Made by a program: the position numbers and the translations under genes. DNA of 64,000 bases from Eledone cirrhosa (taxonomy: Eukaryota). Below are positions 7,944-31,522 of the stretch, in pieces. The notes beneath the pieces are model-generated. The model worked only from the letters and a program-made list of their open reading frames with translations. It ran no database searches and had not been told where the DNA came from. Location of the stretch: assembly GCA_964016885.1 (NCBI GenBank), contig OZ024742.1:66898001-66962000 (forward strand), read 5' to 3'. Numbering within the stretch: position 1 is the stretch's first letter; each line of letters starts with the position of its first letter.

Positions 7944-8381
7944 ATAGAATTGTAGCTCTGAAATAGCAATATATATATGGATGTACATATAATGTATTTG
8001 CAATACACTTTATGCTTAATTAAAAGCATTTTGAAGACCGTAAGCTATTGTTTTAAAGTAGTGACAAATTCACTCACTTCGATCTCAGCAAACAGGAGGA
8101 GATAAGCCGACATGACATGTTTCGCTTTTGTTGAAGCTTATCAGCTCCTGATTATTTACTAGATTTCTATAAGAATATAACATCATTGATCTCAGTAGAC
8201 GGGCGGGGTAGTTGGCCTTGATAAGCTTCAACAAAAGCGAAACATGTCATGTCGGCTTATCTCCTCCTGTTTGCTGAGATCGAAGTGAGTGAATTTGTCA
8301 CTACTTAAAACAATAGCTTACGGTCTTCAAAATGCTTTTAATTAAGCATAAAGTGTATTGCAAAATACATTATATATACAT
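7943..8381. mobile_element. Fold-back element (PLE pLTR-like) between two (TA)n arrays
   Basis: Arms ~7981-8143 and ~8219-8381 are near-perfect reverse complements with a ~75-bp spacer; contains an HHR. Confidence 0.8.
8214..8257 (+). ncRNA. Type I hammerhead ribozyme, U3-A8 variant core
   Basis: ggcc-TTGATAA-gctt caacaa aagc-GAAA-cat gtc atg-TC-ggct. Stems I, II and III each form about 4 bp; predicted cleavage after C8253 (GUC). Confidence 0.75.
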
Positions 8382-9077
8382 ATACATATATATATATATA
8401 TATATATATATATATATATATACATATATATACATATATATATATACATATATATATATACATATATAAATATATATACATATATATACATATATATTTA
8501 TATATATATACATATATATATATATATATATATACATATATATATATATATATATACATATATATATATATACATATATATATATATATACATATATATA
8601 TATATATACATATATATACATATATATATATATATATACATATATATATACATATATATATATATATATATACATATATATATACATATATATATATATA
8701 TATATATATATATACATATATATATATATATACATATATATATATATATATATATATATATACGTATATATATATAATACATATATATATATATATATAT
8801 ACATATATATATACATATATATACATATATATATATATATATATATACATACATATATATATATATATATATATATATATATATATACATATATATATAT
8901 ATATATATATATACATATATATATATATATATATACATATATATATATATACATATATATATATACATATATATATATATATATATACACATATATATAT
9001 ATATATATATATATATATATATATATATATGTTATATATATATATATATATATATATGTATATATATATATATATAT
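8382..9077. repeat. Interrupted (TA)n array
   Basis: Directly visible. Confidence 0.95.
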
Positions 9078-9258
9078 ACCCTGGGTTCAATCGGAGGTAA
9101 CCACATTAGGTAAGGTACTCAATACTTAGCAGAGTATAACTATTTAATATAGAAAAGGCTTCTTCAGGATTAGAATTATTTCATTCGGGAGAAATCATCG
9201 GGAAACCCTTCCGAATGAAACAGTTCTAATCCTGTAGAAGCCATTTCTATATTAAATA
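9078..9258 (-). mobile_element. Short fold-back pLTR-end element
   Basis: Arms 9141-9188 and 9211-9258 are inverted; the single-copy tail 9078-9140 shares aagtattgagtac with 13989-14001. Confidence 0.6.
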
Positions 9259-10445
9259 TATATACATATTTATGTGTGTGCGTGTGTGTATGTATGTGTG
9301 TGTATATATATGTGTGTGTGTGTGTGTGTGTGTGTGTGTGTGTGTGTGTGTGTGTGTGTGTGTGTGTGCGTGTGTGTAATCAGAGAGCGAGATTAAAAAA
9401 ATGGGTATGTGTGAGCATGTATTAAATACTGCCGGTGTAAGTATACATACACCAAAACACACAAAATCGCACAACACACATATAGGTGAGTGTGTGTGGC
9501 CGCGTGCATGTGTGTAGATACCTGCCTGTGGGTACTAGTCTAGAGTGGGAGAAACAAAGTGGAGTGAAATGCATTTACAAACATTACCATAAAACGGGAA
9601 TGACGTAAAGAAAATAAAACAATATATCATTTTACCATTAGAATAGTAACGTGTCTTAAACGTGTCAAGCTGTCTACATAAAGGTCGGCCATGTTTTGTA
9701 CAAAGTGATAAAGGATTTCCTTGTGATAATAACAGATTCTTCAAAATCAATTTAGCGTTACATATTGAAGTTGAAATAAATTTTTTCCAATATTGACAGG
9801 GTTTCATCGGATTGCCTTTTCATTCGAATGGTATTAAAACAATTTAACGGTTTAAATCGGGGAACAATCGAGTTTTAATATTACAAACATGTATACACGT
9901 TCTATTACAGATGAGCTCAGTCATATACACATGTACGAATAAACCCCCCCCCCCACCCCCCACCCCACCCCGCATAATTTTTTCATGCTGACGTGATAGA
10001 GATTTCATGTATTTCATGTGTATTTTATGTGTTTGGAAAATTTGACAATGTGGGAAACTTGACAATGGACTTTGTTTACATAAATATTAAAAAAGTGTAT
10101 GTCATACCATAGGAGAAAAAAGACCATCAAGCAACAAAGCTAAAGCAAACAGGGAGGAAGGGAGATGCAGACGTTACACCCTAGTCAGTGAGGTGATTCG
10201 ACCATGTCACGTAGAAAGAATGGCGAAAGGAGCCACACAGCTTCATGGGGTTCCTTCCTCGAGCAGGCTGCTGTCTTTATGATTTTGCAGAGGAAATCGT
10301 CAGTGCGTGGGCCGAGATCACCAGAGTTGTCGACGGCGACTGGTATTTATCTACTTGTATGTATTACTATATCGATGATGGAGATGGATGGGTATGCATG
10401 AATATATGCTTTTTTGTATGTGTACGCAATATACACATAGATATA

Positions 10446-28516: not shown

Positions 28517-30844
28517 ATGGAAAAGCATTACATAGGTATTTCCCTAAAGAACATTGCTATACATTTCAGAAAGGATTATACCCTCCGGATGATACAACGA
28601 ACAAACGACTTTATACGCCGGGTTAGATGGAAAACTTTCCATTTCGACAAAGGACGTAACGGTCGCACCGTGGAATACGACAAAGAAACATACGACTTCA
28701 AATCACGTAAGAACCCACCTACCAACCCTCAACTGGATGCCTCTGAACAGGACTTACTGAAGATGATTATGAATATTATCAAATTCAAAAAGTGGAGGAA
28801 TAATAAACTCCAGAATGACATGAATACACTCCTAAAAAAGCCGCGAACTACCAATGGAATTATTGTCAAAGCAGAAAAACCTCAAATGTGTAAACGATGG
28901 ATATATACAATAGCTTCATACGGAAGGAATTACATAGGAAATACAAATAAAACTAACGAGACGGCATTGATAAACATCAACAACGAAACACACAATATAG
29001 TTAAACACCTAGGAATAGAGGGCAGAAAACTTAGGCCATGTACCCCCAGATTTAATCTCAAGGAACAATTAGACTTATATGCCCGTCCAAATCGGACATT
29101 GGGAAAATTAGTAAACATATATTAGACAGAGTGATAGCACAAATGAAGAATAAACGAGTGATTAAACTATGGGGAAACAATACCGAAACAATTAAATGGT
29201 TTAACAATATAGCTAACAAAAATGTATCTAAGTTTATACAATTTGACATTAACGACTATTACTCCTCTATATCACCCAATACCTTGGATAAAGCCTTAGC
29301 ATTCGCCAAAGCCAATTATGACCTGACAGCCGACAAGATAAAAATTATATTAGCTGCTAGGAAAACAATAATTAAAATTTGAAAACGCCTATTGGGAACG
29401 TAAGGATAGATTAAATAACTTTGACATCACGATGGGGGCTAATGACTCGGCTCAAGTCACAGATTTAGTAGGTATTTACATAGCCCATAATTTACAGAGG
29501 GAATTTAGCGACCTTCACGGTGGAATATACAGAGACGACGCCCTTCTCCTAGTTAAGAACCTAAATAACCAGAGCATAGAAACACTGCGTAAGAATATTA
29601 GAAAGACTCTCGGGAAACTAGGCCTTAACATAACGTATGAATATAGCACTAAAATAGTTAAGTTTCTAGACGCGACGCTTAACCTAAATACGGGACTTAT
29701 AAGAACTGTTCACAAGATTAATGAAAACTTAGCATACATCAACTGTAATTCGAACCACCCACTATCAATAATTAAATCCGTTCCACGCAGCATATCCCTT
29801 AGGATCTCCCGCCTCTCGTCTAACCGACAAATTTTCGAGGAACACGCCAAGTACTACAATAACGCACTAGACAAGGCAGGCCACTTAGATAGAGTAGAAT
29901 ATATAGATGAGAGCCTCCGCAAAGCACGCACGAACAGGCATAACACAAACTCCAGAAACACACGCACAGACGCATTTACGGATAGAACAACAAATTATAC
30001 TGAAAATAGAAATACAACATCAAAATCAAACAGGTCACGCGGTAGAAAATATATTTGGTATAACCCCATATTTAACACCTCTATTAGTACTAACCTACCC
30101 TCTACCTTCTTTAGAATAATAAATAAGCACTTTCCAGATTCACATAGATACAGCAAAATCCTTAACACTAAATCTATTAGACTATCTTACTCCACTGCAC
30201 CAAACATAGAGGCGCACATTAAGATGTTTAACGCTAAAAAGATATGTAACAACACCGGAACACAAATTTATAACAATAACAATACAATTACTATTGAACA
30301 CAACAGAATATCTAATAAACAACCACCCACTAATAGGGAAACAAAACGTAACATATTTGTGCAGGCATCGTAGCCCACCAATAATGCCAAAGTTGCCCAT
30401 GACAAGAATTGTAATTGCCACCTACCCGAAACCTGTCCATTGCATAATGAATGTATGCAATCTAACCTGCTTTTCCAATGCACAGTGCAATCAGACAAAG
30501 AGAAATGGTATTACATCGGAGCGACTGGGAATACATTTAAAGCTTGTTAGTATACACACCGTTACGAAATTAAACATTCCCAACATCGTTATGTAACTAC
30601 ACTTGCGAACAAGACCTGGCAAGTCAGGGAAAGTAACCATCAATACACCCTGAAGTGGAAAACATTATCGAAAGCGCCCCCATATCGGAGTGGTATGAGA
30701 AGCTGTCGGTTATGTGACCTTGAGCTGTTGCACATTTTGAGTTCGAAGAATAAGTTACTCAACAATAAAATCGAAAGATCAATCTATTGTAACCATAGAC
30801 TCAAAGAAATGTTTTCTCACTACAAGTGCAAATCGAACCCTTAA
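28517..30844 (+). pseudogene. PLE reverse transcriptase-GIY-YIG polyprotein (frameshifts and stops)
   Basis: SLKNI..FIRRVRWK N-terminus; FIQFDINDYYSSI, MGANDSAQVTDLVG, GIYRDDAL. Reading past TAG 30371 gives CNCHLPETCPLHNEC..YYIGAT..CRLCDLE..CNH to TAA 30844. Confidence 0.92.
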
Positions 30845-31421
30845 CCTCTTCCTACCACCTGACAAACTGCATATATTTAGAATTTCTACCCTCTTATTGT
30901 ATCTAACCCCTTTAATTACCTACAATAACCAATACCTATATCCCTCCCTCCTCCTTTCCTTTTCTCTTTTTTTTTCATTTTCTTCTCTTCTTTTTTCTCT
31001 TCCCCTTTCTTTATTTTTATTTTTATTTTTATTTATATATATATTTATCTCTCTATTCCCCCCCCTCTCTCTCTCTCTCTCTCTCTATCTATCTATCTCT
31101 CTCTCTCTCGCTCTCTCTCTCTCTCCCTCCCTCCCACTATAAACAATTTAAATCTCTTTAACTCCCTACACTGTAAATCGACGACATGAAGTCTACGAAT
31201 CAAAACTGATCGTGGAATCCTTCCACCTTTACCCCTCCCTCCATCTCCGTGTGTCACTCTACTTTCTAATTCTTCTCCCCCTTCCACTCTCTCTATACTA
31301 CTCCGTTTGTCAATCTACTTCCTAATTGCTTTTCCCCTTCCTCTCTCTCTATACTAGTAAATACTATTCCCAAAAAATGTTTTTTTTTATATTAAGAACC
31401 TTTTAAGAGTAACTTATTCAC

Positions 31422-31522
31422 TATTTTGAAAATTTGGAGGTGAAGAACAATTATTATTGAGTGGCTGCTATTTGCAGTATAGCAATATAAGGTTGCACTT
31501 ACCAATGAAACGGTCGTAAATT
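31422..31522 (+). ncRNA. Candidate hammerhead, U3-A8 variant core with ~74-nt stem II
   Basis: tatt-TTGAAAA-t ttggaggtg...cactt a ccaa t-GAAA-cggtcg-TA-aat(t/a), at the expected pLTR position; stem I is only 3-4 bp. Confidence 0.55.

What the first reader, a model, noticed from the sequence alone, without database searches (positions are those of the whole stretch)
8214..31522. Four unrelated Penelope-type pLTR families appear to use a compensatory U3-A8 hammerhead core (UUGANAA)
Seen: at 8218 (TTGATAA), 13865 (TTGACAA), 16147 (TTGAAAA) and 31426 (TTGAAAA), a UUGANAA box sits where CUGANGA should be. It follows a stem I strand and precedes stem II, GAAA, stem III, UH and the complementary stem I strand. 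Two of these lie in pLTRs of recognisable PLEs in which I found no canonical HHR. Established: C3 and G8 form a tertiary Watson-Crick pair in the active hammerhead, and natural U3-A8 variants are regarded as uncommon. Inference: a common variant-core HHR class exists in this lineage's PLEs and is invisible to CUGANGA searches. The 8214 and 13859 folds are strong; 16142 and 31422 are AT-rich and weaker.
Basis: partly seen in the sequence, partly recalled or inferred. Interest (0 to 1): 0.82.

Follow-up and report, generated by a model that had tools for sequence, protein, structure and literature searches.

The report
Real hammerheads, known U-A core variant
The four motifs are hammerhead-ribozyme sequences carried by four repeat families, with one core base pair swapped from C-G to U-A; this swap is already published for Penelope-like jumping genes, and the less ordinary result is that a related subfamily likely spread with that pair broken.

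Summary
All four UUGANAA boxes are present, and each is the majority core of a repeat family (84/86, 40/43, 48/50, 37/41 aligned segments) with full type I hammerhead anatomy. A 1-Mb genome sample held 86 C3-G8 and 9 U3-A8 motifs, against 0-3 for each other 3/8 combination and 0-2 in shuffles: a real but minority class. Two families (13865, 31426) are pLTRs of RT/GIY-YIG Penelope-like elements. The other two (8218, 16147) are ORF-less 317- and 571-nt units resembling retrozymes. Three of the four named window copies are decayed. U3-A8 cores in Penelope hammerheads are published (about 1,300 in Schistosoma, PMC4209133; natural covariation in PMC3088659), and this scan noted them before in other genomes. 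Additions: the two PLE families are not one clade (AU p=0.0075). In the 13865 superfamily, 1,559 copies read C3·A8 against 5,070 U3-A8 and 52 with G8; one subfamily has 903 C3·A8 versus 170 U3-A8. A mismatched core therefore probably amplified, which weakens any claim that cleavage is required. No cleavage was tested.

The parts
8214..8257 (+). F1 type I hammerhead: U3 8218, A8 8223, stem I 4 bp, stem II 4 bp with hexaloop, GAAA 8239-8242, near-palindromic stem III, predicted cut after C8253; intact
   Evidence: covariation across relatives
7957..8375 (.). F1 insertion (ends approximate): + copy of the 317-nt ORF-less unit and an inverted, 5'-truncated copy (about 8143 to 7957) that starts inside the core, between (TA)n arrays
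13861..13955 (+). F2 type I hammerhead in a PLE 3' pLTR: U3 13865, A8 13870, GAAA 13928-13931, predicted cut after C13950; stem II broken in this copy
12341..12655 (-). Inverted F2 pLTR copy (U3 12439; same stem II damage, GAAA reads GATA)
12912..13226 (+). GIY-YIG endonuclease remnant of the 5'-truncated F2 element, about 620 nt upstream of the hammerhead
16142..16228 (+).
15765..15857 (-). F3 hammerhead, intact copy: U3 15849, A8 15844, U.U at 10.1/11.1 then 4 bp, stem III 9 bp, predicted cut after A15773, stem I 8 bp
15613..16525 (.). F3 insertion: - strand near-complete 571-nt unit (16143 to 15613) plus + strand partial copy (16142-16525)
31422..31522 (+). F4 hammerhead in a PLE 3' pLTR: U3 31426, A8 31431, U.U then long stem II, GAAA 31507-31510, self-complementary 8-nt stem III, predicted cut after A31518; stem I 3 bp here, 4 bp plus a 7-bp distal helix in the family
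27467..31669 (+). F4 Penelope-like element: inverted pLTR 27467-27862, 5' pLTR 28182-28434 (GAAA deleted), broken RT/GIY-YIG ORF in pieces 28502-30736, 3' pLTR 31142-31669

Best explanation
These are type I hammerhead motifs of four retroelement families in which the tertiary C3-G8 pair reads U3-A8; intact family copies would likely self-cleave after U-H17 (F1 and F4 likely as dimers through their self-complementary stem III, F2 and F3 likely as monomers), as known Penelope and retrozyme hammerheads do. Shown: sequence anatomy, family-wide conservation, enrichment over controls, and linkage of F2 and F4 to RT/GIY-YIG ORFs. Inferred: F1 and F3 are non-autonomous, retrozyme-like units copied from circular or tandem RNA by PLE proteins; cleavage releases unit-length RNA from tandem transcripts; the C-G/U-A switch happened more than once (or reverted). 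Cleavage is probably not strictly required for PLE copying, since a C3·A8 subfamily of F2 amplified.
For: Only C3-G8 (86) and U3-A8 (9) exceed shuffles among 16 combinations in 1 Mb (first, stricter version 63 and 10). Eleven hand-picked short-stem-II relatives: 89% of cells paired, 12 of 14 pairs with two-sided change, pair 3-8 = CG 6, UA 5. Family copies reach the hammerhead fold 1.1-4.6 kcal/mol above the MFE. F1: 573 exact genome matches with positions 3 and 8 left free, first 100 listed all U3-A8, tandem period 316-317. F3: 571-nt terminal redundancy, longest stop-free frame 59 aa. F4 endonuclease is sister to a C3-G8 family (98/96 support), whose hammerhead region is 63% identical over 113 nt; one U3-A8 clade is rejected, AU p=0.0075. 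Known biology: PMC4209133, PMC3088659, PMC7229834, PMC11167929.
Against: No cleavage or expression data. Three of four named window copies are decayed. In a type III hammerhead mutational scan only the G:C swap rescued this pair and other double mutants were low (PMC9901934 passages), so U3-A8 activity depends on context. The C3·A8 subfamily (1,559 copies) shows F2 can spread without a Watson-Crick 3-8 pair. The alignment used motifs that had passed my own descriptor, so it leans toward the structure. The tree uses 138 columns of the endonuclease only, 24 of 62 hits. Pfam found no family for the PLE ORFs; the assignment rests on motifs and layout. No autonomous parent of F1 or F3 was found or excluded.
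Confidence: 0.8

Rival explanations
1. The U3-A8 motifs in the PLE families are catalytically weak or vestigial. The fold is kept as a structural or protein-binding element of the pLTR RNA, and the 3-8 pair drifts.
For: C3·A8 903 against U3-A8 170 within one flank-defined subfamily, co-segregating with a second site (8 of 10 against 8 of 10). Hammerhead catalytic mutants did not affect insertion of an anole PLE in vitro (PMC11167929). PLE hammerheads cleave poorly in vitro.
Against: At family level the states are C3-G8 or U3-A8 almost exclusively (21 and 7 of 33 clusters). G8 forms in F2 are rare (52 against 6,629 with A8). N7 varies freely among F2 subfamilies while U4, G5, A6, A9 and GAAA stay. 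Pure drift would not keep landing on Watson-Crick pairs.
Confidence: 0.15
2. The C3·A8 form is an active re-registered core: CUGA-GA-A read as C3 U4 G5 A6, no N7, G8 A9 plus an extra A before G10.1, or a tolerated C·A wobble.
For: 94 of the first 100 listed C3·A8 matches have G at position 7, whereas U3-A8 copies show all four bases. An extra nucleotide between 9 and 10.1 is typical of PLE minimal hammerheads.
Against: Descent from a G7 U3-A8 subfamily explains the G equally well. That deleting N7 is strongly harmful is recalled, not checked here.
Confidence: 0.1
3. The four boxes are chance matches in AT-rich DNA, or C3-G8 hammerheads that decayed in these copies.
For: UUGANAA and GAAA are common at 34% GC, and three window copies fail my descriptor.
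Against: They are the majority state in each family, 5,070 exact U3-A8 matches against 9 C3-G8 in F2, and shuffles give 0-1 per Mb.
Confidence: 0.02

Closest known systems
U3-A8 minimal hammerheads of Cercyon Penelope-like elements, Schistosoma mansoni (Cervera and De la Pena 2014, PMC4209133)
   Same: U3-A8 core in PLE pLTRs, missed by a CUGANGA descriptor, thousands of mostly single copies, long stem II, palindromic stem III (F4).
   Different: Different host and apparently a different PLE clade (Zn-finger linker, Neptune/Nematis type). F2 and F3 have stable 5- and 9-bp stems III rather than minimal ones. An amplified C3·A8 subfamily was not mentioned in the parts read.
Non-LTR retrozymes of metazoans (Cervera and De la Pena 2020, PMC7229834; Li et al. 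bioRxiv 10.64898/2026.07.22.740005)
   Same: F1: 317-nt ORF-less tandem unit, 35% GC, one type I hammerhead per unit, 4-bp stem II, palindromic stem III. F3: ORF-less terminally redundant unit.
   Different: U3-A8 core (no mention in the passages read; the search found nothing). F3 is longer (571 nt) than the 150-450 bp range. Circular RNA was not shown here.
Natural hammerhead core variants (Perreault et al. 2011, PMC3088659)
   Same: Natural C3-G8 to U3-A8 covariation, and U10.1-U11.1 mismatch at the base of stem II, as in F3 and F4.
   Different: There a rare variant among hits; here the majority core of several high-copy animal repeat families.

Membership tests
Type I hammerhead ribozyme | Core N3-U4-G5-A6-N7-N8-A9, G12-A13-A14-A15.1, U16.1-H17 with a 3-8 Watson-Crick pair | tested here: met
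   Met as U3-A8 in family majorities; not met in the 16147 + copy (G17) or in the C3·A8 subfamily of F2.
Type I hammerhead ribozyme | Three helices, helix I open-ended, supported by covariation | tested here: met
   Constrained folds; pair counts for F1 and relatives. F2-F4 were not put through a formal covariation count.
Type I hammerhead ribozyme | Rfam gathering score | tested here: not met
   HH9 31-33 bits against 52, only at F1.
Type I hammerhead ribozyme | Site-specific self-cleavage | not testable with these tools
   Needs an in vitro assay.
Penelope-like element (F2, F4) | RT followed by GIY-YIG endonuclease, hammerhead in the pLTR downstream | tested here: met
   RT motifs, CxC zinc-finger linker and VY..YIG read directly from translations; endonuclease about 580-820 nt upstream of the hammerhead in most linked copies. 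Pfam gave no hit.
Penelope-like element (F2, F4) | Tandem pLTRs with an inverted 5'-truncated copy, (TA)n targets | tested here: met
   arrangement as described in PMC8557442
Penelope-like element (F1, F3) | Linked RT/EN ORF | tested here: not met
   No family-linked ORF in the fetched loci; nearby ORFs are separated by microsatellites or lie in inverted, unrelated elements. Only 30 best loci per family were seen.
Non-LTR retrozyme (F1, F3) | Short non-coding tandem unit with one type I hammerhead per unit | tested here: met
   F1 period 317 in 27 of 29 spacings, arrays. F3 571-nt redundancy, with few true tandems seen.
Non-LTR retrozyme (F1, F3) | Expressed as unit-length circular RNA | not testable with these tools
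   No run on record as RNA was listed for F1; F3 was not searched.

The most novel reading that the evidence does not exclude
Within one genome the hammerhead 3-8 pair has switched between C-G and U-A in at least two PLE lineages and in retrozyme-like units, and it can do so because mismatched cores still retrotranspose: a C3·A8 subfamily of at least 903 copies is such a state caught after amplification. This would be genomic, in vivo evidence that PLE copying does not need efficient hammerhead cleavage, or that C3·A8 is an unrecognised active core.
Probability: 0.4. Interest if true: 0.5.

Novelty: new member of a known kind. Interest (0 to 1): 0.3.

Why it matters
Practical: CUGANGA-only descriptors miss roughly a tenth of intact hammerhead motifs and a quarter of motif clusters in this sample, which bears on published claims of hammerhead absence made with such descriptors (PMC8557442 used 'cuganga' strings). 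Biological: the role of the hammerhead in Penelope-like elements is open. Sister subfamilies that differ at position 3 (U3-A8 against C3·A8), and a C3-G8 sister of F4, form a natural allelic series to test whether cleavage matters. The U3-A8 core itself is not new.

Tried and rejected
The repeat finder on the whole window was swamped by (TA)n arrays; replaced by a masked self-BLAST. Rfam gave mostly miRNA noise on microsatellites. Pfam found nothing for four PLE ORF pieces. The ORF near F1 in L013/L016 was rejected as F1's own: (TA)n lies between them and the two loci share both flanks. The 855-aa ORF in L227 was rejected as F3's parent: no F3 pLTR follows it. The idea that these are Naiad elements was rejected for F2 and F4: their endonuclease is C-terminal. 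The DNA tree of 73 F2 copies was confounded by non-homologous flanks and cannot root or order C3·A8 against U3-A8. Sequencing runs: no RNA holder listed. Four runs of unknown kind laid on F1 listed no alternative letters at 8218-8224, and one contig closed a 316-nt unit; as contigs of unknown kind these were not used as evidence. Lunse et al. (PMC5785218) and Przybilski and Hammann (PMC1986816) are not held and may already report mismatched or U3-A8 PLE cores. Searches for C3·A8 in print and for U3-A8 retrozymes returned no paper; both are narrow word searches. No supplements were read; those of PMC4209133 and PMC8557442 may bear on novelty.
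Full report
Observation. The four boxes lie where stated, and fixes the numbering: U3/A8 at 8218/8223 (F1), 13865/13870 (F2), 16147/16152 (F3), 31426/31431 (F4). The window lies in a 3.0-Gb assembly (G000); the organism was not determined. Each site belongs to a dispersed repeat with 1,377-3,749 first-look candidates, of which 40 were scored and 30 fetched. Among aligned segments the box reads UUGANAA in 84 of 86, 40 of 43, 48 of 50 and 37 of 41. 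These segments come from the closest matches and from partly overlapping loci.

Anatomy. F1 has a 4-bp stem I, a 4-bp stem II with hexaloop, and a stem III that is a near-perfect palindrome (self-duplex -10.5 kcal/mol); the predicted cut follows C8253. F2 family copies have G10.1-C11.1, a small internal loop, a 9-bp helix and a 5-bp stem III with a palindromic loop, and reach the hammerhead fold 1.1 kcal/mol above the MFE. The window copy has three substitutions in stem II and needs 11.3. F3 has an 8-bp stem I, a U.U mismatch then 4 bp in stem II, and a 9-bp stem III. F4 has a 4-bp stem I plus a 7-bp distal helix, a U.U-based long stem II and an 8-nt self-complementary stem III; the window copy has lost one stem I pair (all; unconstrained folds, z -0.4 to -3.0). 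U10.1-U11.1 is a known natural variant (PMC3088659 section 8).

Chance and frequency. I fetched 100 evenly spaced 10-kb stretches from 12 contigs and scanned all 16 combinations of positions 3 and 8. A first descriptor gave 63 C3-G8 and 10 U3-A8. After relaxing it to admit the F3/F4 architecture: 86 and 9, the other 14 classes 0-3, and five shuffles 0-2 per class. Clustering sample plus window gave 33 clusters, 21 C3-G8 and 7 U3-A8. The window itself holds 9 canonical motifs. U3-A8 is thus real and recurrent but a minority. Eleven short-stem-II motifs that I chose (5 U3-A8, 6 C3-G8) show 89% paired cells and two-sided changes in 12 of 14 pairs; they had passed my descriptor, so this leans toward the structure.

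Carrier elements. [quoted passage not shown] The linker points to Neptune or Nematis (PMC8557442 passages); 'Nematis' in particular is recalled. Pfam found nothing. F1 is a 317-nt unit (27 of 29 spacings) with 573 exact genome matches and long tandem arrays. F3 is a 571-nt terminally redundant unit. Neither has a frame over 59 aa or a linked ORF in the loci seen. They resemble non-LTR retrozymes (PMC7229834 passages), which a 2026 preprint derives from PLE pLTRs (abstract, introduction and part of methods read).

More than one switch. In an endonuclease tree (24 rows chosen from 62 hits, 138 columns) F4 groups with a C3-G8 family (98/96) apart from F2, and a single U3-A8 clade is rejected (AU p=0.0075). 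That family's endonuclease-hammerhead link recurs in 3 further loci of 15 fetched, and its hammerhead region is 63% identical to F4 over 113 nt. The tree is unrooted, so gain and reversal cannot be told apart.

Result against the simple reading. Whole-genome exact counts for the F2 superfamily are 5,070 U3-A8, 1,559 C3·A8 and 52 with G8 (9 C3-G8 and 43 U3·G8 among the 52 listed). With one diagnostic upstream flank fixed, C3·A8 outnumbers U3-A8 903 to 170. A second site in stem II's loop co-segregates (8 of 10 against 8 of 10), copies are about 92% identical, 4 of 10 carry the endonuclease upstream, and 9 of 10 have no Watson-Crick-core hammerhead nearby. So a template with a mismatched core was probably copied many times (counts include inverted pairs from single insertions). 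Whether it was autonomous, and whether it cleaves, is unknown. This agrees with an anole PLE whose hammerhead mutants still inserted in vitro (PMC11167929 passages). A mutational scan of a type III hammerhead rescued this pair only with G:C (PMC9901934 passages), so U3-A8 activity cannot be assumed.

Mechanism, most likely. Intact U3-A8 copies would cleave tandem or read-through transcripts after U-H17, F1 and F4 as dimers and F2 and F3 possibly as monomers, releasing unit-length RNA that PLE RT/EN proteins copy into (TA)n targets. Anatomy and linkage are shown; cleavage, circles and trans-mobilisation are inferred from known families.

What is known. PMC4209133 (parts 1-2 of 4 read, results and discussion) reports U3-A8 in Cercyon PLE hammerheads of Schistosoma mansoni, missed by the first descriptor, with about 1,300 hits. 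PMC3088659 (passages and section 8) reports natural U3-A8 covariation and cites earlier in vitro activity. PMC6765202 was seen as passages. This scan has noted the same variant in other genomes. Lunse et al. and Przybilski and Hammann could not be read, and no supplements were read. Word searches for C3·A8 and for U3-A8 retrozymes found no paper.

Verdict. Real feature, new members of a known kind, interest 0.3. The amplified C3·A8 subfamily is the part worth following.

Noticed in passing
G000 genome-wide; examples L270-L279 (e.g. G000:C1:18770635): F2 subfamily with an uncompensated C3·A8 core, 903 exact copies with one diagnostic flank. A second flank type with C3·A8 (L252, L253, L136) was seen but not counted.
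   Followed up: partly
window 1096(-), 14288(-), 14919(+), 41711(-), 42769(+), 43591(-), 43897(+), 62896(-), 63471(-); 26871(-) with U3.G8: Nine canonical C3-G8 hammerheads of five families, several as inverted pairs, and one decayed copy.
   Followed up: partly
F2 copies in the 1-Mb sample, e.g. L121:9545, L190:643, L205:5309: 46 of 52 BLAST hits start inside the stem II loop, many as back-to-back inverted pairs: a possible 5' truncation or inversion hot spot about 45-60 nt upstream of the cut site. Subfamily divergence may account for part of it.
   Followed up: no
window 59338-60651 (+) and L227 (- strand, 855-aa frame): PLE-like ORFs with no own hammerhead recognised downstream.
   Followed up: partly
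window 836-988, 23498-23692, 39898-40088, 44822-45007, 45245-45878, 50345-50519, 54108-55041, 62500-62683: A roughly 190-nt SINE-like repeat in about 12 copies.
   Followed up: no
window 20887-21672 (-); 55276-58202 (+); 25300-26532 repeated at 49170-50349: DDE transposase remnant (weak Pfam DDE_3), a LINE remnant with an APE endonuclease (PF03372), and an unclassified coding repeat.
   Followed up: no
L037:2457-2517, L056:1300-1360, L177:754-814, L214:9430-9492, L186:7419-7523, L161:6993-7046: Further U3-A8 hammerheads: F1 relatives with compensated stems and at least three other families.
   Followed up: partly
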